64,000 nucleotides of DNA from Promethearchaeota archaeon (GTDB lineage: Archaea; Asgardarchaeota; Lokiarchaeia; Sigyniarchaeales; SOKP01). The translations under genes and the position numbers were made by a program. Of the stretch, positions 1 to 7,883 are shown one piece after another; positions within the stretch are counted from its first letter, which is position 1, and each line of letters opens with the position of its first letter. The notes under the pieces are model-generated. The model was not told where the DNA came from, made no database searches, and worked only from the letters and a program-made list of their open reading frames with translations. The stretch is from positions 32,001-96,000 of the forward strand of contig JAUVNS010000002.1 of NCBI GenBank assembly GCA_030599585.1, written 5' to 3'.

Positions 1-1
1 T

Positions 2-616
2 TAGAATTATTACTAGAGGGATATTTGCAAAGATTAAGTTCCTTTTATACTCTCTTTTCCATTTTATGACATTTTTATAACCATTTATATTCTGTCTTAA
101 AATATCTATTATTTTATAATAATCCAAATTAAAATTAATTTTTAAGTCGATTGAAGTTTTAACTAAGTTAACACCTTTCTTTGTTAGTTGGCGTAAGAGA
201 ATTGTTCCAACGATCACCTCAGCTTTATCCTTCCCAAATTCATTTAAAAGATTCTTTTTTGTTTCAAACCATTTTCTTATTATTGGTTTCTCCCACCAAT
301 CGCAAAATTCTTCAACAAATTCGACAAAAGGTTGTTGGAGCTTTGCTTGATAAGTTTCGTCATTCCAATTATTAAAAAAGTGAATAAAAAGCAAATTTAT
401 AACTATATTCGAGAGACATCCGTTCTTTGGTCCAGAATCCCATATATCTAAGATTAAGTCGAATCTTTTTTGACCAATATCTTGTTTTAAATGAATTGGA
501 GAAGAAAAACTAGAGGATAAATCACCGTAATCATATTTTTCAAATAATTTAATTAATAATCTAATGTTTCTTCTATGCTTATCATTCCAATCTATTGGAA
601 CTTCTATGTGCTTCAT
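2..616 (-). CDS. Hypothetical protein, 5' part only (runs off window start); last visible gene of the ParB-SNF2-DUF3883 operon
   Basis: Manual translation from ATG at 616 (MKHIEVPIDWNDKHRRNIRLLIKLFEKYDYGDL...) is stop-free for 205 codons to the window edge; 35 bp downstream of the 943-aa gene on the same strand; not in the ORF track. Confidence 0.75.
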   Translation of the reverse strand, partial: MKHIEVPIDWNDKHRRNIRLLIKLFEKYDYGDLSSSFSSPIHLKQDIGQKRFDLILDIWDSGPKNGCLSNIVINLLFIHFFNNWNDETYQAKLQQPFVEFVEEFCDWWEKPIIRKWFETKKNLLNEFGKDKAEVIVGTILLRQLTKKGVNLVKTSIDLKINFNLDYYKIIDILRQNINGYKNVIKWKREYKRNLIFANIPLVIIL

Positions 617-651
617 AACTAAAACTATTTTTTAATAAAATGTTAAAATAT

Positions 652-3483
652 TTAATTGCTTTTAATTGTCAAAATTAATTTGGATATATTATTATTTGAT
701 TCTTCAAGTAATTTAAAAATCTCTTCTCTTTCAAAAGTGGATAACTCAGTTCTTTTAAATTTTGATCTTAACAAATTTATGCGATCTCGTATTAATTTTG
801 AATGTTCTAAGCAAGATCTTCTCTCTTCTGATATTTTGATTTTCTTAACTAATCCAGTAAATAATATTTGAATTCGCTTTTTATCCTCAATTTCTTGATT
901 TAGAATTTGATCAATTATACTACTTTTTACTGGATCATTAATTATAAATTTAAATTTTTTAATCATATTAGCTTTCAATATCTTTTTTTTAGAGACAAAT
1001 TTTTTGTCAATATTATTCCTTAACCAGAGAAAAGTCATGTTTTTGATTTTCTCTTTCATTAAAATTAATTCTCTACCTCCTTTCCCTGTGTAAACTCCTA
1101 ATTTCGATAATTCAGAGTTTAATACTTCAAAATGTTCGAATATATCAAATTTTTCAATAATATAAAAGTCATTCTCTAAGCCATTTTCTACTAAAAATTC
1201 TTCCATAAGATCATAAAGAAATCTGTATGTCGAAATTTGATTAAAATCAATGTTAAAGATTTCACAAATTTCTTCGTGTTTAATCTCATTATTCACCATA
1301 TTTATTAACAATTTTAGATCTTTTAAATCAAATGGTTTATTCAATTCATACTTCGATTGAATATTAATTTCTGATTTTAATCTACTTAATTCCTTAGTAG
1401 TTAAATCTTTTGGGAACTGAACGATTTTGATAAAATTCTTTGAGTTAAAGGCTGTATCTGTTAATATTGGGCTTAAAATATTAGATAATTTTATTGTTGC
1501 TAACCTTTTATTTCCATCTATAATATTACCATAATAAGAGACAAGTATTGGATCAGTCTGCCCTTTATTTTTATACATTTTAACATATTCATTCGATTTT
1601 TCATCAAAGTTTAAATAATTAAGAATTATTTTTTCAAAAATAGGATAATTTTCGATATTATCTTTAGAAATATGAATTCCAATCCTCCTTTCAAATTGAT
1701 TAATAATGTGTAAAAAATAGTCGCTATCAATATCTAATTTTAAGTATTTAGCTTCAATTTGTTGAATTGGGAAACTATAATGTTTAAAATTCCACAGATT
1801 GATTTTATCGATTGAATCTTCAACATCAGTTATTATTATCTCTAAGTTTTCCTCGCGGAATTGAAATTTTTTATAATTAATGAGAATTTCATATAATTCT
1901 TTCGAATTGACATGAAGTTCTCTAAAAGATTCTTGAACTTTTTCATTCTCCATAATATTTTTCAAGATACTTTTAGCTAAGGATATTTTTTCATTTTCAA
2001 TTAGGTATTTTGATTTTAATATTTGGGAAAATATCATGTGTTCAAGAGGTATATAATCAAATTTATTGTATAGCTGAAATAAATGTTTTAATATTTTTAA
2101 TGCGGATTTGTTATTTCCTTTTGAACTTTTTTCTCTGGCTACAAGATATAATTTGTATCTTTCAAGATTTTTAATTTCTTTGAATTTATGGCTTAATGAT
2201 CTTTTGTTTTGATAGTATAATGCTTTTTCAACCCTTTTTAAAGCATTTGTAAAATCTGATTGTTCAAAAAGCAATCTTGCTTGAACTTCTTCTCTATAAG
2301 CGTTAATAATAAAAAAAATATCTTCTACAAAATTACCTTTTAATAGAGAAGAGATCGATTGGTATTGGTTTCTTAGAAAATTATTACAAATATTAAGACA
2401 ATCTTGATATTCATTTTTATATAATGAATTTTTCACTTTGACATAAATATATTTTAATAATGAACGGTAATATCTTTTTATATACTTTTCCTCTTTGAAA
2501 GAAGTCAGATCTTTATATGATTTAACATAAGAAGCTAACGCGATTTCTTGATCTTCAAATCTTTTCTCTTTTTTATAAAAGTATGCTAGACCTTCATAAT
2601 AATATGCTTCTGATATCTTTTGTTCATATTTTTTGTTTCTTAATTTAAAAAAATATTGAGCAAAATCATAACAAATTAAAGACAATTCTTTATTATCATT
2701 GAAATAGCAAATCTGGCCAATTGTATAGAAATATTTGGAAAAACAGAATTGAATTATTTTATCATCATAGCCCATTGCAATTTTTATTGATCTCATATAA
2801 AGTTCAGATTTTTTTCTTAAACATTCATTATTTTTTTCTGTTAATTTCCTTGCTTCGTCTAGGTAATAATTTAATAGTTTGCGATCTCCTCTATTTTTAA
2901 ATCTATAAAATTTATTATCCTTATATTTTTCTGCTAATGTTGCGATAACTAATATTTCTTCAATATCTTCTGACAATAATGATTCTAAATCATCTTCAAA
3001 ATCCAAGAAATAACTCAATTTTTCAAAATGATAATGAGAAATTATTCCTTTCTTTTTCAAAAGTTTATTATAAATAGCTTTGAATACTTCATATTTAGAA
3101 CATGAGAACCCTAATTGCTCAAAATCAGCTAATACTATTTCTAATTCATTTTTTGTTCTAATAACAAAGCCACTTTTACCTAAACCGAGTATCATGTTTG
3201 CAAACATTCTTTTATAAGTAATTTTCAATGCTTCTTTATTTCCGGGGAACAGCTTAAAAAAAGTTTTAAGTGCATTAATAGAATCTATATATAACGCGCT
3301 ATGACAATTTTCTGCATTTGTTGTTATTTTTTCAAAAAGGCGCCAACCTAAAGCTTCTTTATCTAAATTACGTTCTCTGATAATTAAGCGAATCGCATTA
3401 TCATTAAATTCTTTATTAGTAATAATTAAATTATATATCTCTTCTATATACTTATCATTAAGGAGTTCTTCTTTTAGATTCAT
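652..3483 (-). CDS. Helical-repeat (TPR-like) protein with a C-terminal ParB/Srx-like domain
   Basis: N-terminal ~540 aa is Tyr/Lys-rich helical repeats (YYYEGLAYFYKKEKRFED, FTNALKRVEKALYY); C-terminal part has GQTDPILVSYYGNIIDGNKRL and aligns with the 419-aa protein. Confidence 0.7.
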   Translation of the reverse strand: MNLKEELLNDKYIEEIYNLIITNKEFNDNAIRLIIRERNLDKEALGWRLFEKITTNAENCHSALYIDSINALKTFFKLFPGNKEALKITYKRMFANMILGLGKSGFVIRTKNELEIVLADFEQLGFSCSKYEVFKAIYNKLLKKKGIISHYHFEKLSYFLDFEDDLESLLSEDIEEILVIATLAEKYKDNKFYRFKNRGDRKLLNYYLDEARKLTEKNNECLRKKSELYMRSIKIAMGYDDKIIQFCFSKYFYTIGQICYFNDNKELSLICYDFAQYFFKLRNKKYEQKISEAYYYEGLAYFYKKEKRFEDQEIALASYVKSYKDLTSFKEEKYIKRYYRSLLKYIYVKVKNSLYKNEYQDCLNICNNFLRNQYQSISSLLKGNFVEDIFFIINAYREEVQARLLFEQSDFTNALKRVEKALYYQNKRSLSHKFKEIKNLERYKLYLVAREKSSKGNNKSALKILKHLFQLYNKFDYIPLEHMIFSQILKSKYLIENEKISLAKSILKNIMENEKVQESFRELHVNSKELYEILINYKKFQFREENLEIIITDVEDSIDKINLWNFKHYSFPIQQIEAKYLKLDIDSDYFLHIINQFERRIGIHISKDNIENYPIFEKIILNYLNFDEKSNEYVKMYKNKGQTDPILVSYYGNIIDGNKRLATIKLSNILSPILTDTAFNSKNFIKIVQFPKDLTTKELSRLKSEINIQSKYELNKPFDLKDLKLLINMVNNEIKHEEICEIFNIDFNQISTYRFLYDLMEEFLVENGLENDFYIIEKFDIFEHFEVLNSELSKLGVYTGKGGRELILMKEKIKNMTFLWLRNNIDKKFVSKKKILKANMIKKFKFIINDPVKSSIIDQILNQEIEDKKRIQILFTGLVKKIKISEERRSCLEHSKLIRDRINLLRSKFKRTELSTFEREEIFKLLEESNNNISKLILTIKSN

Positions 3484-3570
3484 TTTTTTACACCGATTTT
3501 TTCGTTATTAATACAAATTGGAATTGGAAATCATTTAATTTAGAAATATGGTTTTAAAAATCATATATAA

Positions 3571-4647
3571 CTATTTTAAACCATCATTTTCATAATTATC
3601 ATTTTCTCTTTCAATATCTGAAAATTTCATAGTTTCGTGCCTAAAACTGTCAAATGGAACTTCTACTTCATATAATGTAGGTTTCAAGGGTATTATTCCA
3701 TTTTCAACTAAATAGTGAACATTATTGAATTTCTTAAGAGTATTATTTTTTAAATTGACAAAATATATCCAATAATCTTCATTAAATTTAATAGAAGTTG
3801 AGTACTCATTTCGCGAGAGAAAAAAGCGTGAGTTTAGGCTATTAGTTGTTTTGACTTCTATATATTTACTACTCCCATCTTTATTAACAGATAAAATATC
3901 ATAACCCTTGTCAACATAATCTCTTGCGATTAGTCTAACACGGTTTATTAAATTTGGATCAGGAAATTTATTTACCTCTTGTTTTTCTAATCTAAAAGCT
4001 ATATTCTCTCCTAAAGTCCCGATAATTTTTTGTTTTTTTAAGATTTTTTCTAAATCATCCTCAGTAAATTTTTTTCCCATTAAAATTTTCTTCCAATAGT
4101 CCTCATAATCCAAAATTTCAGGGTGAAATTCAACCAGGTTTTCTGAAATTTGAAGATTAGCCTCCCAATAGTGATTTAGATTTGTAGATAATTCGAAGAA
4201 ATCATCCTCCATAGAATCAGACAATAAATTCAATGTTTTTAACATCGAAATAAGAACAGCGCAATATTTTGAACTGTGTAATTTATAAATTAAAAATCTG
4301 TCTTCTTTTTTTATTGCATATTTTTGTAAATCTTCAAATATCCAATTATTTAGCATAAACTCTTCAATTAGTTTCATCTGTAAATCTGTTATTTTTATTA
4401 AAGAATCTTGATCTGAATGACTTAAATAGTGTTCTCCAAATTCAGTTAAATGAATGATATTATTCTCATTAGAATAAAAAAAATTTAAGGTTTTTCCTAA
4501 TTTTAAACCTAAATCTGAATCACACGTACTAAGCAAGGGATTTTCCTTAATATATCGATCAAATTCATTATAGGGCATTCCTACCCCGATTGCCCTATAC
4601 TCCAATACTTTTTTTAAGATTAAATTAAATTGCCATAAAAAAGTCAT
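3571..4647 (-). CDS. DUF3883 (NO VEIN C-terminal) PD-(D/E)xK nuclease-domain protein
   Basis: GTLGENIAFRLE...GYDILS...KYIEVKTT...FFLSRNEY matches the DUF3883 signature; N-terminus is wHTH-like (IHLTEFGEHYL). Confidence 0.85.
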   Translation of the reverse strand: MTFLWQFNLILKKVLEYRAIGVGMPYNEFDRYIKENPLLSTCDSDLGLKLGKTLNFFYSNENNIIHLTEFGEHYLSHSDQDSLIKITDLQMKLIEEFMLNNWIFEDLQKYAIKKEDRFLIYKLHSSKYCAVLISMLKTLNLLSDSMEDDFFELSTNLNHYWEANLQISENLVEFHPEILDYEDYWKKILMGKKFTEDDLEKILKKQKIIGTLGENIAFRLEKQEVNKFPDPNLINRVRLIARDYVDKGYDILSVNKDGSSKYIEVKTTNSLNSRFFLSRNEYSTSIKFNEDYWIYFVNLKNNTLKKFNNVHYLVENGIIPLKPTLYEVEVPFDSFRHETMKFSDIERENDNYENDGLK

Positions 4648-4666
4648 TTAAATTACCCGAAATTAA

Positions 4667-6616
4667 TTAAATATCATCATAAAAAATTTCAAACTCTTCA
4701 GCATCAGGTTCGTTTGAAAAACCAATAAAAGATTCTGTATCATTTAGAATATGAAGCATATCTATTTCTTTTTCAATTAAGCGATTATGGATTTTATGAT
4801 CGATCGTTCCTTGAGGTAGATCGTCAGAAACTGATACTAAATAATAATATGTGATCTGATCATCATCTTCTAAACCAATTCTGTGAATTCTATCTTTTGA
4901 TTGAATAAATTGGCCACAATTATAAGACCTATCAACATAAATTGCATCGTGGCATACTTTATGGAGGGAAATTGATTCTGCGCAAGCTTGCGGATTAGCA
5001 ATTAATATAGAAAACTCATGAGGATCTTTTTTAAACCGGGAAATATAGTCTTCTCGGGATTCTTCGGTATAAATACCATTTCTTAAATCTTTTGCTTTAG
5101 ATTTAGGAGTATCTCCAATGATTAGAAAAACATGATCCTCCCCAAATTCCTCCTTGAAGAACTCATATAAGGTCTCAAGATTAATTATAAACTCGGACCA
5201 AATTAGGATTTTCTTTATATTTTTTTCATTTTTTAATTTTCTTACTAATTCAACTGTTTTTAACAATTTTGGGGAACATTCATAATTTGAATATATCTCC
5301 AAATTATTAATTACTTCCAGAATTTGATTGTCTGCTTCAATATTCTGAGATTGCCCAGCAATTTCATCTTTTAAAGATTCTAAACCATATTCTGTAGATT
5401 TTTCCATTAGTAAATTTAAATTTGAAGAAATTTGTCTTAATCTAACAATTAAACAATTTTTGTAACTATTTATTATCTCAAAATGAACTAAATTTTCAGC
5501 ATATTCGATAATATCCTTCCATCTTTCACTTACTAACTTATACAATGCTAATTGAGATGGAGAAAGGGGCACTTGAATCACCAATTCCTTTGGTTTTGGT
5601 AGATTCATTTGCGTTTTAGAGATTCGAGTAAAAAAAGGGTAAATTTTTTCTTTTATATCTTCTATAACTGAAGGGTTGGAGTTTCTAGTAAGATATTTAA
5701 AATGATTTTTATCACCTAATAATGCTCCAGGATATAAAAATGAGAATTGTGCAAAAAGATCATGAATATTATTTGGGACGGGTGATCCTGTTAAAATAAT
5801 TTTTGCTGAGCTATAAGGAGATAATCTGAGGATCGCAGAGGATCTTTTACCATCAATATTTTTGATATTATGAGATTCATCCAATACCAACACAAAACTA
5901 TATTTACTGAGTAGATCAATCAGATATCTTATATCTCTACGAGCAGTTTCATATGTTGTTAAAAATATATCAGTATCCGAAATAAGTGTCTCATCATTAT
6001 AATATTCTATCCTATCCTTTTTTCTACCATGAATTCTAATTAAGTTTGGAAGAGGCTCTTTAAAACATTCCTTGATTTCTTCTTCCCATGGCATCAATGA
6101 ACTATAAGGTCCAATTACAAGCAATTTATCAACAATCCCCTCATTTTTCAAAAAATCAAATCCTGCTAATACTATTGTTGTCTTTCCACTTCCAGGAACA
6201 CTAAAGTTTGCCACGCATTTTAATTCTATAAAATGATATACCGGCATCCTTTGATAATCAATTAATATTCTTTTAAAAGAAGGAGGGTTTTCTGAAAAGA
6301 TATTATCATGTTCTTTTATAGATTTGCCAACTTCAACTAAATCTATAATATCAACACGAGTTTTCAAATTAGTTAGAAAATTTTCTAAAACTTGTGTCTT
6401 TTTAATTTTATAATCTTTTTGTTGTTTTAAATACTCAAAAGAAAGAAGGGCTAGTTCATGATTTAATTCAAAATTTTCGAAAGTATATTGAGTGTCTTTT
6501 GGATTAGAGACTTTGTACCCATAATTATTCAATTTTACTCTAGTTTTAGCATTTGGTTTTTCTTCAAATCTTAAGATAAGGTTTCTTCTTTCATAATCCG
6601 CTATAATATTGTTCAT
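4667..6616 (-). CDS. SNF2-family (SF2) helicase/ATPase
   Basis: PGSGKT, LTTYE, VLDESHNIKN, LTGSPVPN, RLRQISSN, SPKL, QSKDRIHRIG. Confidence 0.93.
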   Translation of the reverse strand: MNNIIADYERRNLILRFEEKPNAKTRVKLNNYGYKVSNPKDTQYTFENFELNHELALLSFEYLKQQKDYKIKKTQVLENFLTNLKTRVDIIDLVEVGKSIKEHDNIFSENPPSFKRILIDYQRMPVYHFIELKCVANFSVPGSGKTTIVLAGFDFLKNEGIVDKLLVIGPYSSLMPWEEEIKECFKEPLPNLIRIHGRKKDRIEYYNDETLISDTDIFLTTYETARRDIRYLIDLLSKYSFVLVLDESHNIKNIDGKRSSAILRLSPYSSAKIILTGSPVPNNIHDLFAQFSFLYPGALLGDKNHFKYLTRNSNPSVIEDIKEKIYPFFTRISKTQMNLPKPKELVIQVPLSPSQLALYKLVSERWKDIIEYAENLVHFEIINSYKNCLIVRLRQISSNLNLLMEKSTEYGLESLKDEIAGQSQNIEADNQILEVINNLEIYSNYECSPKLLKTVELVRKLKNEKNIKKILIWSEFIINLETLYEFFKEEFGEDHVFLIIGDTPKSKAKDLRNGIYTEESREDYISRFKKDPHEFSILIANPQACAESISLHKVCHDAIYVDRSYNCGQFIQSKDRIHRIGLEDDDQITYYYLVSVSDDLPQGTIDHKIHNRLIEKEIDMLHILNDTESFIGFSNEPDAEEFEIFYDDI

Positions 6617-6623
6617 TGTTTAA

Positions 6624-7883
6624 TTAGTCCTCATCATCCTCTTTTAATAAGAAAATAATATCATTTATCTTCTCTTGATTTTGCTCCATTATTCCCAACA
6701 ACCTTTCTTCATCGATTTCAGTTTCTCCTTCATCTATAACATTTTGGATTCCATCTAATTTATCAGAAATCTGTTCAGCAAGAGTATAGATTTTTTCTTC
6801 CTTCTCACCTTCACGTATAGAATTAATTGCTGCTGTCATCAATTTATGGACTTCTCTCTTTCCTGAGACATTTTCATCCAGAGAGAGCACTTTTTCCACA
6901 GTATTTCTTAAGTCATTTCTATGTACAACTGAATTCAATTTTCTGATAACTTCTCTACTTTTCATTACCTTTTTTTCGGCAATCATTTCTGGATCTATGT
7001 TATTTTTTAACCATTTAAAAGCTAATTCTTGCATTAAGTCTAGTTCACGATCTAATTCAACTCCCTGTAAACCTGTATATCGAGCATGGCCTCTATTTAA
7101 CTTTCGCAGCTCTCTAAAATGATCAAAAAGATTTCTTTTATCGATTATTGTATACTTCTTCTCTATATCATTATCTTCCAAATAAAGTTCAATTAAATTC
7201 AAGACTTCTTCAAATTCTTCAACATCAGCATCAAATAGGTTGAACATTTTTGCTATCTCAGTTTTACTATAATTAAATGATTTTAATTTTCTTACAGCAA
7301 GAGCCTGATTTATTAAGGTATAATTTACTCTTTCATCTATAAATAATTGATTAAAAGTCTGAATTGCAAGCAACTGGCTTTTGGATAATCCTGAATCTAA
7401 CCTTACTACATCCATATGTTTATATTTATCATAGTTTCCTTCAGTTTTTACTTTTTCTTCCTGATACAATTGCCTTATAACCATATATCTTCTATTGCCG
7501 TCCAGTATTATCCCACCGTTAGTGATAATACCTGGGACTTCTTGTTGAGTATTAGAAATACTTTTCTTCAATTTTGATGTTTTTGTTTTATCAGATCCAC
7601 GCTGAAGTGTATCTTCAAATATTCCTGCATAAATCTCGCGATCTGACAAATTTTCAAAGTCCAATTCACTTCCTAATTTATTTAGTTCTTCTATTAACTG
7701 ACCCTCAATTCTCATATTATCAAAATTATATGTTAAAAATTCAATTGGAACTTTAACTACTTTTAAATCTTTCATAGTACCATCGAACCATCTTATCCGA
7801 TGTGTTCTTTCTGTAATTGCTATAACTCCATTAATTTCAATAAAATTATTTATTCTTAACGAATTCTCCTCTTCAAAAACCAT
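6624..7883 (-). CDS. ParB/Srx-like N-terminal domain protein with HTH and helical C-terminus
   Basis: VPIEFLTYNFDNMRI...QQEVPGIITNGGIILDGNRRY (ParB/Srx GxxR motif); YSKTEIAKMF is HTH-like. Confidence 0.8.
   Translation of the reverse strand: MVFEEENSLRINNFIEINGVIAITERTHRIRWFDGTMKDLKVVKVPIEFLTYNFDNMRIEGQLIEELNKLGSELDFENLSDREIYAGIFEDTLQRGSDKTKTSKLKKSISNTQQEVPGIITNGGIILDGNRRYMVIRQLYQEEKVKTEGNYDKYKHMDVVRLDSGLSKSQLLAIQTFNQLFIDERVNYTLINQALAVRKLKSFNYSKTEIAKMFNLFDADVEEFEEVLNLIELYLEDNDIEKKYTIIDKRNLFDHFRELRKLNRGHARYTGLQGVELDRELDLMQELAFKWLKNNIDPEMIAEKKVMKSREVIRKLNSVVHRNDLRNTVEKVLSLDENVSGKREVHKLMTAAINSIREGEKEEKIYTLAEQISDKLDGIQNVIDEGETEIDEERLLGIMEQNQEKINDIIFLLKEDDED

What the first reader, a model, noticed from the sequence alone, without database searches (positions are those of the whole stretch)
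652..7883. Internal paralogy: the 943-aa protein ends in a diverged full copy of the 419-aa ParB-like protein
Seen: colinear matches between the C-terminal ~390 aa of 652-3483 and the 6624-7883 protein: GNIIDGNKRL vs GIILDGNRRY; HEEICEIFN vs KTEIAKMFN; DLMEEFLVENGLENDFYIIEKFDIFEHFEVL vs NLIELYLEDNDIEKKYTIIDKRNLFDHFREL; YTGKGGREL vs YTGLQGVEL; FLWLRNNIDKKFVSKKKILK vs FKWLKNNIDPEMIAEKKVMK. The fused copy appears to lack the YNFDNMRI motif. Inference: local duplication and fusion to a TPR-like sensor; the two could heterodimerise, with the fused copy acting as regulator, decoy or guard (compare integrated-decoy immune receptors).
Basis: partly seen in the sequence, partly recalled or inferred. 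Interest (0 to 1): 0.7.

Follow-up and report, generated by a model that had tools for sequence, protein, structure and literature searches.

The report
Degenerate ParB twin in defence operon
The last 384 residues of the 943-residue protein are an old, faster-evolving copy of the operon's ParB-like protein that lacks most nucleotide-site motifs. This copy stays beside a ParB/Snf2-motor/nuclease cassette in every related locus examined, so it is probably a non-catalytic partner or regulator of an archaeal DNA-defence system.

Summary
**Observation.** Confirmed. Residues 560-940 of the 943-aa protein (652-3483, minus strand) are homologous to residues 29-413 of the 419-aa protein (6624-7883). 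BLASTP gives E 1e-19 and profile-profile comparison gives E 4.7e-27.

**What the 419-aa protein is.** ParB1 has a true ParB N-domain plus HTH fold. It heads a widespread, unannotated ParB / Snf2 helicase / NOV_C (DUF3883) nuclease cassette. This scan has met that cassette before on other DNA (24 notes in at least 23 genomes), mostly in methylase-linked bacterial forms.

**What is new here.**
- The fused copy (ParB2) is not a local duplicate. All ParB2 copies form one clade (100/100). Their tree mirrors the ParB1 tree (Mantel r 0.91). An AU test rejects sisterhood within this genome (p 0.002).
- Every ParB2 has lost box I. Most have R to K in box II.
- ParB2 evolves faster than ParB1 but is under purifying selection (dN/dS 0.30 against 0.16).
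- Its N-terminal partner varies: a TPR-like solenoid, a sacsin-type GHKL ATPase, or about 90 residues.
- It lies beside ParB1 in 8 of 8 loci with enough context, in three different gene orders.

**Reading.** ParB2 is most likely a non-catalytic ParB partner that couples a sensor module to the cassette. Heterodimerisation was not shown. It is a new variant of a known kind, closest to AbiR and Hma.

The parts
6624..7883 (-). ParB1: 419-aa ParB N-domain + HTH + C-terminal helical hairpin protein, first gene of the operon. Box I YNFDNMR lies at 7710-7730 and box II DGNRR at 7488-7502.
   Evidence: AF2 model pLDDT 89.3. Foldseek top hits are pNOB8 ParB-N 5k5d, M. xanthus ParB-CTPgammaS 7bnr, Noc and KorB. 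VIA-align gives Z 8.9 over 208 residues to 5k5d. Motifs.
4667..6616 (-). Snf2-family helicase, 649 aa, with GSGKT and DESH motifs present.
   Evidence: Pfam SNF2-rel_dom 1.1e-30, ResIII, Helicase_C. Best PADLOC model is the ZorD helicase part, 2.7e-44.
3571..4647 (-). Stand-alone NOV_C / DUF3883 PD-(D/E)xK nuclease, 358 aa. The D...EVK motif is visible in '..YDILSV..KYIEVKTT..'.
   Evidence: Pfam NOV_C 5.5e-16. PADLOC PD-T4-1 and PDC-S36 nuclease-domain hits. Sequence.
2884..3483 (-). N-terminal ~200-residue alpha-helical domain of the 943-aa protein. Function unknown; many invariant residues within the TPR clade.
   Evidence: No Pfam or Atlas assignment.
1879..2883 (-). TPR-like helical-hairpin solenoid, residues ~201-535 of the 943-aa protein.
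   Evidence: AF2 pLDDT about 85-95 in this part. Foldseek hits to Ctr9, SKI3, APC/C, IFIT5 and OGT TPR arrays. ARM_TT21/TPR Pfam hit in homologue P0018. Atlas leads are all TPR clusters.
652..1806 (-). ParB2: degenerate paralogue of ParB1, residues 560-943 plus the stop codon. It keeps DGNKR (1504-1518) and the HTH region but lacks box I and the box III pattern.
2..616 (-). Start of a fifth gene that runs off the window. Its full-length homologue in L001 is a 685-aa multi-TM protein ending in an RxxxxH (HEPN-like) motif. It is a lineage-specific accessory, absent after ParB2 in L007 and L017.

Best explanation
SHOWN.
- The operon at 652-7883 (minus strand) encodes ParB1, an Snf2 helicase, a NOV_C nuclease and a 943-aa protein. 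That last protein is built as: unknown N-domain + TPR-like solenoid + ParB2.
- ParB1 belongs to a large, unannotated family of ParB-fold + HTH proteins. This family heads a ParB / Snf2 / NOV_C cassette found across bacteria and archaea, often next to an N6/N4 DNA methyltransferase.
- In a small archaeal subfamily the ParB gene duplicated once, long ago.
- One daughter (ParB2) lost box I and the box III pattern, and usually the first box II arginine.
- ParB2 evolves about 1.5-2 times faster than ParB1 but stays under purifying selection.
- ParB2 became fused to interchangeable N-terminal modules and has stayed linked to ParB1 through three rearrangements of gene order.

INFERRED.
- ParB-family proteins work as dimers whose N-domains close around nucleotide. 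I therefore read ParB2 as a non-catalytic partner subunit that pairs with ParB1, or with ParB1-loaded DNA.
- This pairing would place the cassette's DNA loading, and hence Snf2 translocation and NOV_C cutting, under control of the sensor or ATPase module carried on ParB2's N-terminus.
- In these methylase-poor loci that control may replace methylation as the safeguard against self-attack.
For: - Paralogy: BLASTP 1e-19; hhalign E 4.7e-27 over ~380 columns.
- ParB fold of ParB1.
- Ancient single duplication: the ParB2 clade has 100/100 support, ParB1 93/88, and the rest of the family 100/98 (quick tree).
- ParB1 and ParB2 share an inserted 'WL(K/R)NNIDPxMI..KK' block that the wider family lacks.
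- The AU test rejects a window/L001-specific duplication (delta lnL 211.85, p 0.002).
- Co-divergence: Mantel r 0.91, with 4 of 5040 permutations as high. ParB2 is less conserved than ParB1 in 21 of 21 locus pairs.
- ParB2 is functional, not decaying: dN/dS 0.30 against 0.16 for ParB1.
- Motif loss.
- Obligate linkage: ParB2 is downstream in the window, L001, L007 and L017. It is upstream on the same strand in G140 and L016. It is divergent upstream in L003 and L005.
- Swapped N-termini: TPR-like, sacsin/GHKL at 47-51 bits against a cutoff of 32.8, or ~90 residues. Only the ParB2 part is homologous between the clades.
- Cassette breadth: 871 representative clusters below 1e-10. About 40 of 46 genome loci have ParB-Snf2-NOV_C and 19 of 46 have an adjacent methyltransferase.
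- No such methyltransferase was detected in the window or in L001, L003, L005, L007 or L017.
Against: - No direct evidence that ParB1 and ParB2 touch.
- ParB2 keeps its HTH region and the second box II arginine, so it could bind DNA and act on its own.
- The ParB2 part of the full-length model is low confidence (pLDDT 30-70), so its fold rests on homology to ParB1.
- The methyltransferase search used only two queries of one methylase class and short contigs, so 'methylase-less' is weak.
- dN/dS comes from a single close pair.
- The tree is unrooted and ParB2 sits on a long branch.
- Defence function itself is inferred from gene content, island context and relatives such as AbiR and Hma, not tested.
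Confidence: 0.5

Rival explanations
1. Integrated decoy or guard. ParB2 mimics ParB1 to bait viral proteins that inhibit or hijack ParB1. Binding is read out by the TPR/GHKL module and triggers the nuclease or the downstream TM-HEPN protein.
For: ParB2 evolves faster than ParB1 in 21 of 21 comparisons, and the N-domain has the highest dN/dS in the operon at 0.45, as expected of a surface facing an adversary. Loss of catalytic motifs while the scaffold is retained. A HEPN-type gene follows in the window and in L001.
Against: All dN/dS values are well below 1. The HEPN gene is absent from the other ParB2 loci. No viral anti-ParB factor is known for this family. The same data fit a plain regulatory subunit.
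Confidence: 0.15
2. Independent DNA-targeting module. ParB2 homodimerises and simply tethers the TPR/GHKL module to DNA through its retained HTH. It has no physical contact with ParB1, and the two proteins act at different steps.
For: The HTH-region similarity is retained, with weak MerR/GerE HTH hits in P0014 and P0029. The C-terminal helical hairpin, a plausible homodimerisation element, is retained. A separate tandem ParB duplication in Thaumarchaeota keeps both copies catalytically intact, showing that two ParBs can coexist without one becoming a pseudo-subunit.
Against: Strict co-inheritance and co-divergence with ParB1. ParB1 and ParB2 share a conserved block that the rest of the family lacks.
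Confidence: 0.2
3. Recent local duplication followed by decay. The fused copy is a functionless remnant.
For: 23% identity and the lost motifs could look like decay.
Against: The ParB2 clade spans loci whose ParB1 proteins are only 30% identical. AU test p 0.002. dN/dS 0.30. Intact reading frames of 940-1330 residues in most loci.
Confidence: 0.02
4. The genes are plasmid or mobile-element partition and maintenance functions (ParB as a centromere-binding protein), not a defence system.
For: The best structural match is the pNOB8 plasmid partition ParB. The region is a low-GC island.
Against: No ParA-type ATPase in the operon. There is invariant coupling to an Snf2 helicase and a PD-(D/E)xK nuclease, often with a methyltransferase. 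The flanks carry other defence-type operons. The experimentally validated AbiR system has a ParB-like component plus an Snf2-nuclease component (PMC13064643).
Confidence: 0.05

Closest known systems
AbiR of Lactococcus lactis pKR223 (AbiRi/ii/iii plus the LlaKR2I methylase; review PMC13064643)
   Same: A ParB-like protein whose model superimposes on PDB 5K5D, the same top hit as ParB1. An Snf2-type ATPase combined with a restriction-type nuclease. A third large accessory protein proposed to be the sensor. A validated anti-phage phenotype affecting DNA replication.
   Different: In AbiR the nuclease is fused N-terminally to the Snf2 ATPase. The accessory protein is sigma70-like, not TPR::ParB, and no second ParB copy is reported. 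AbiR needs a methylase and is toxic without it, whereas no methylase was found here.
Hma system (HmaA Snf2::DUF3883, HmaB DUF1156 methylase, HmaC DUF499 ATPase; PMC11232893)
   Same: An Snf2 helicase working with a DUF3883/NOV_C nuclease. HmaA's nuclease nicks DNA and is needed for T4 defence.
   Different: Here the helicase and nuclease are separate genes. A ParB-fold protein replaces the AAA+ HmaC. There is no DUF1156 methylase. No Hma model appears among the hits listed for any of the five proteins.
Canonical CTP-dependent ParB clamps (ParB/Spo0J, Noc, KorB)
   Same: ParB1 shares the N-domain + HTH fold, an arginine box (DGNRR) and a box I-like N..N.R motif.
   Different: No ParA, and no Pfam ParB_N hit at threshold. 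It has long helical insertions and its own C-terminal hairpin. The box III position that is E in the wider family is Q in all ParB1. Nucleotide specificity is unknown.
Integrated-decoy immune receptors (plant NLR-ID) and pseudoenzyme partners
   Same: A degenerate copy of a working protein is fused to a repeat/sensor or ATPase module and kept next to the working copy.
   Different: This is an analogy only. There is no NLR/STAND domain here and no evidence of bait function.

Membership tests
ParB/Srx superfamily (ParB N-terminal domain) | ParB N-domain fold followed by an HTH | tested here: met
   ParB1 model pLDDT 89.3. Foldseek E 2e-4, probability 1.0, to 5k5d, 7bnr, Noc and KorB. VIA Z 8.9, 208 residues, rmsd 3.9. 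ParB2 qualifies only through homology to ParB1; its own model is low confidence.
ParB/Srx superfamily (ParB N-terminal domain) | Arginine-rich box II (GxRRxxA-type) | tested here: met
   ParB1 has DGNRR, invariant in 11 sequences. ParB2 has DGN[K/R/Y]R, where only the second Arg is invariant.
ParB/Srx superfamily (ParB N-terminal domain) | Box I-type N..N.R motif on the first strand | tested here: met
   Met for ParB1 and the wider family (YNxxNxR). Not met for any of 8 ParB2 copies. Equivalence to ParB box I is by position in the fold, not by a residue-level superposition.
ParB/Srx superfamily (ParB N-terminal domain) | Pfam ParB_N / ddrB-ParB score above the gathering cutoff | tested here: not met
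   ddrB-ParB 17 bits against a cutoff of 27.6, and no ParB_N hit. The PDB sequence search was empty. The family is too divergent for current sequence models.
ParB/Srx superfamily (ParB N-terminal domain) | NTP (CTP) binding or hydrolysis | not testable with these tools
   Needs biochemistry.
ParABS partition system | Adjacent ParA ATPase and a parS centromere | tested here: not met
   No ParA-type hit among the operon proteins. parS was not searched.
Hma defence system | HmaA Snf2::DUF3883 fusion with a DUF1156 methylase and a DUF499 ATPase | tested here: not met
   Helicase and nuclease are separate ORFs. No Hma model appears among the hits listed for any of the five proteins (for the helicase 25 of 27 families are shown). 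Pfam of the five operon proteins shows neither DUF1156 nor DUF499.
AbiR-like systems | ParB-like protein + Snf2 ATPase with restriction-type nuclease + large accessory protein | tested here: inconclusive
   The architecture is analogous, but the domain order differs and sequence homology to AbiR proteins was not tested.
AbiR-like systems | Dependence on a cognate DNA methyltransferase | tested here: inconclusive
   tblastn with two N6/N4 methylase queries found none in the 64-kb window or in five related loci. Other methylase classes were not searched.
Type I Zorya (ZorD) | ZorD helicase-nuclease together with ZorA, ZorB and ZorC | tested here: not met
   Only the helicase core matches ZorD models. 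The other four proteins hit no Zor model.
TPR-like solenoids | Helical-hairpin superhelix | tested here: met
   AF2 helices 201-535. Foldseek hits to Ctr9, SKI3, APC/C, IFIT5 and OGT. Pfam TPR models reach threshold only in homologue P0018 (27.2 against 27).

The most novel reading that the evidence does not exclude
In this archaeal branch of the ParB/Snf2/NOV_C cassette, self/non-self control by DNA methylation has been replaced by a protein switch. A pseudo-ParB (ParB2) forms an asymmetric clamp with ParB1 that has a single working nucleotide site. The exchangeable N-terminal module (TPR array or GHKL ATPase) senses infection and licenses or blocks clamp closure, and with it Snf2-driven nuclease attack. 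ParB2 could also act as a bait for viral anti-ParB factors.
Probability: 0.25. Interest if true: 0.7.

Novelty: new variant of a known kind. Interest (0 to 1): 0.5.

Why it matters
- ParB-fold proteins are known mainly as symmetric CTP-gated DNA clamps. A conserved pair of one motif-intact and one motif-degenerate ParB inside an immune-type operon would be a natural test case for asymmetric ParB clamps.
- It would also show how a sensor module can be wired to a translocase-nuclease effector.
- It gives a handle on a very widespread cassette that is still unnamed and annotated only as 'hypothetical protein'. Its only experimentally studied relatives (AbiR, Hma) are mechanistically unresolved.
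- The swap of TPR, GHKL or no module on a constant ParB2 module marks ParB2 as the docking part.

Tried and rejected
- Complex prediction of ParB1 with ParB2 (alignments A6 + A5) scored 0.06 against a mark of 0.32: no verdict. It is evidence neither way.
- Sequence search of the PDB with the ParB1 profile gave only chance-level hits.
- hhalign of the family profile against a Pfam-positive ParB_N protein from L001 aligned only the box II region, at 4.5% probability. A residue-level mapping of box I and box III onto canonical ParB was therefore not obtained.
- The N-terminal 200 residues of the 943-aa protein have no Pfam or Atlas assignment.
- The search for related loci with the broad alignment A7 failed for lack of a conserved stretch. 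It was repeated with the narrower alignment A8.
- Plasmid search for an AbiR-bearing record found Firmicute plasmids with distant ParB-like hits and a Lactococcus plasmid carrying type III R-M + ParB + helicase. None was an identifiable pKR223/AbiR record, so AbiR homology stays untested.
- Literature searches found no paper describing a ParB / Snf2 / DUF3883 operon or a ParB paralogue pair in defence.
- The apparent natural 'split' of the TPR and ParB2 parts in L005 was rejected. It is a single-base frame change at an A5 run, and the frames are otherwise continuous.
Full report
**1. Observation**

The minus strand of 1-7883 carries five co-directional ORFs:
- 6624-7883: 419 aa, P0002, called ParB1 here.
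- 4667-6616: 649 aa.
- 3571-4647: 358 aa.
- 652-3483: 943 aa, P0001.
- 2-616: runs off the window.

The gaps between them are 7, 19, 87 and 35 nt.

BLASTP of P0001 against P0002 aligns 639-943 with 111-416 (E 1e-19, 23% identity, 50% positives, compositional adjustment on). A profile of seven stand-alone homologues against a profile of four fused homologues extends the match to P0002 29-413 = P0001 560-940 (probability 99.7%, E 4.7e-27). The paralogy is real and nearly full length. The genome holds only these two copies.

**2. What the parts are**

- The 649-aa protein is an Snf2-family helicase (SNF2-rel_dom 1.1e-30). Its best PADLOC models are ZorD and DpdE helicase cores.
- The 358-aa protein ends in a NOV_C/DUF3883 PD-(D/E)xK domain (5.5e-16).
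- ParB1 has no Pfam hit at threshold. With a 10-sequence alignment it folds at pLDDT 89.3.
- Its best structural matches are ParB N-domain + HTH structures. These are pNOB8 ParB-N 5k5d, M. xanthus ParB with CTPgammaS, Noc, KorB and Spo0J (Foldseek probability 1.0; VIA Z 8.9 over 208 residues).
- ParB1 residues 336-419 form a long helical hairpin.
- The 943-aa protein folds as an alpha domain (1-200), a confident TPR-like solenoid (201-535), a linker, and the ParB2 region. The solenoid has pLDDT about 90 and Foldseek hits to Ctr9, SKI3, APC/C, IFIT5 and OGT. ParB2 is modelled poorly with only six sequences.

**3. The cassette is widespread**

A profile search of 1.84 billion representatives found 1596 relatives, 871 of them below 1e-10. 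Most are ~400-aa proteins matching the N-domain + HTH half.

Forty-six loci were fetched from reference genomes. They come from Methanomicrobia, Thermoplasmata, Nitrosopumilales, Bacteroidota, Acidobacteriota, Verrucomicrobiota, Chloroflexota, Leptospira and others. About 40 show ParB - Snf2 - NOV_C in that order, and 19 have an adjacent N6/N4 methyltransferase (also L019 and L020). Members are annotated 'hypothetical protein'.

This scan has met the cassette before on other DNA. There are 24 notes in at least 23 genomes, mostly methylase-linked bacterial versions. One of those notes led me to AbiR.

**4. History of the duplicate**

Close relatives of ParB1 are rare: 9 in the 5.8-billion-protein set, and 4 of 400 genomes of the phylum. 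Every locus with enough context also has a ParB2-type gene:

| Position of ParB2 | Loci |
|---|---|
| Downstream of NOV_C | window, L001, L007, L017 |
| Directly upstream of ParB1, same strand | G140 (470 aa), L016 (1333 aa) |
| Divergently upstream | L003, L005 |

The L005 copy is interrupted by a frame change at an A5 run.

In a careful ML tree, all nine ParB2 copies form one clade (100/100), ParB1 forms another (93/88), and the rest of the family a third (100/98). The two subtrees have the same shape (quick tree).

- Pairwise identities of ParB1 and ParB2 across seven loci correlate (Mantel r 0.91; 4 of 5040 permutations as high). ParB2 is the less conserved in 21 of 21 pairs.
- Forcing the window/L001 copies of both types into one clade costs 211.85 log-likelihood units (AU p 0.002).
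- ParB1 and ParB2 share an inserted block, 'WL(K/R)NNIDPxMI..KK', that the wider family lacks. This argues that the duplication happened in their common ancestor, after it split from the rest of the family.

So this is an ancient single duplication with co-inheritance, not a local one.

Thaumarchaeal loci show a separate tandem ParB duplication in which both copies keep all motifs.

**5. What changed in ParB2**

| Motif | ParB1 and wider family | ParB2 |
|---|---|---|
| Box I | YNxxNxR, conserved | Absent in all copies (L-K-L-D-type sequence instead) |
| Box II | (D/N)GNRR | DGN[K/R/Y]R |
| Box III-like | 'IEAxxQ' in the wider family; 'IQTxNQ / LQTxIQ' in all ParB1 | Variable |

The HTH region and the C-terminal hairpin remain alignable.

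Between the window and L001 (dS about 0.3), dN/dS values are:
- ParB1 0.16
- Snf2 0.16
- NOV_C 0.25
- ParB2 0.30
- TPR 0.26
- N-domain 0.45

ParB2 is therefore constrained, but less so than ParB1.

**6. The N-terminal module is exchangeable**

The TPR clade comprises the window, L001, L003, L005, L007, L017 and L018. It shares the N-domain + solenoid.

The sister clade carries either a ~930-residue region starting with a sacsin-type GHKL ATPase domain (P0028, P0041; 47-51 bits against a cutoff of 32.8) or only ~90 residues (G140). Profile comparison finds homology between the clades only in ParB2. ParB2 is thus the constant part and the N-terminus the variable part.

**7. Mechanism**

Shown: the architecture, fold, history, motif loss, selective constraint and linkage described above.

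Inferred from established knowledge of ParB clamps:
- ParB clamps are dimers whose N-domains engage around nucleotide. ParB2 is therefore most simply a non-catalytic partner of ParB1.
- It would bring a sensor or regulatory module to the ParB1/Snf2/NOV_C machinery.
- No N6/N4 methyltransferase was detected in the window or in five TPR-clade loci. The ParB2 protein may therefore replace methylation as the safeguard. This is weak, because only two methylase queries were used and the contigs are short.

The single complex prediction gave no verdict and is not used as evidence.

Rivals are a bait/guard role, an independent DNA-tethering role, decay, and a partition function. Decay is contradicted by the tree and by dN/dS. 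A partition function is unlikely given the absence of ParA and the fixed nuclease/helicase partners.

**8. Comparison with known systems**

The closest experimentally studied systems are:
- AbiR: ParB-like AbiRii matching 5K5D, Snf2 + nuclease AbiRiii, a large sigma70-like AbiRi, and methylase dependence (PMC13064643).
- Hma: an Snf2::DUF3883 fusion with a DUF1156 methylase and a DUF499 ATPase (PMC11232893).

Neither has a second, degenerate ParB or a TPR/GHKL::ParB fusion, and no paper found describes one. I file this as a new variant of a known kind.

**9. Context**

The operon lies in a low-GC stretch (24-29% against 31-37% elsewhere). Next to it is a CARF/helicase/PLD operon. Earlier notes place the genome in the Loki-group Asgard archaea and report a DISARM-like system just upstream of the window; I did not verify either statement.

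Noticed in passing
L026 7710-10203; L027 7707-10221; L028 7777-10194: Nitrosopumilales-type genomes carry two tandem ParB-like genes ahead of Snf2-NOV_C(-methylase). Both copies keep box I, II and III. They form two clades of their own, so this is an independent, older-than-species duplication of the same component.
   Followed up: partly
L016 2810-6811 and L014 879-4850: ParB2 is fused to a ~930-residue N-terminal region that begins with a sacsin-type GHKL ATPase domain. The gene sits upstream of ParB1-Snf2-NOV_C. A GHKL ATPase together with a NOV_C nuclease recalls the parts list of Tiamat/NO VEIN proteins.
   Followed up: partly
L005 2029-2220 (minus strand): The TPR::ParB2 gene is split into 504-aa and 394-aa ORFs by a one-base frame change at an A5 run. 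This is either an assembly error or a recent inactivation.
   Followed up: partly
L011 1486-1944 (G177, same family as the window's genome): A 152-aa ORF matches only the C-terminal ~157 residues of ParB2 (35% identity), and no ParB1 hit was seen nearby. It is probably a remnant of a lost system.
   Followed up: no
window 7349-7366 (ParB1 residues ~173-178) and homologues: The wider family has a conserved Glu at this position (IEAxxQ). All 11 ParB1 proteins of the duplicated subfamily have Gln instead. If this Glu corresponds to the catalytic Glu of ParB box III, ParB1 itself may bind but hydrolyse nucleotide poorly. No residue-level superposition was obtained.
   Followed up: partly
window 2-616 and L001 15733-17790: The fifth gene encodes a 685-aa protein with a soluble N-domain, a multi-TM middle and a C-terminal RxxxxH (HEPN-like) motif. 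The N-domain has a weak, sub-threshold Mab-21_C hit. The gene is present only in the window/L001 lineage.
   Followed up: partly
L069 (Lactococcus lactis plasmid NZ_CP087603.1) 3008-11714: A type III methylase and endonuclease are followed by a 423-aa ParB N-terminal-domain protein, a 620-aa DEAD/DEAH helicase and a 201-aa protein. This is another ParB-helicase module riding with an R-M system on a dairy plasmid.
   Followed up: no
L001 2088-3338: The contig that holds the closest homologous operon also encodes a separate 416-aa protein with a threshold Pfam ParB_N hit, next to an HFX_2341_N protein. It is unrelated to the ParB1/ParB2 family beyond box II.
   Followed up: partly
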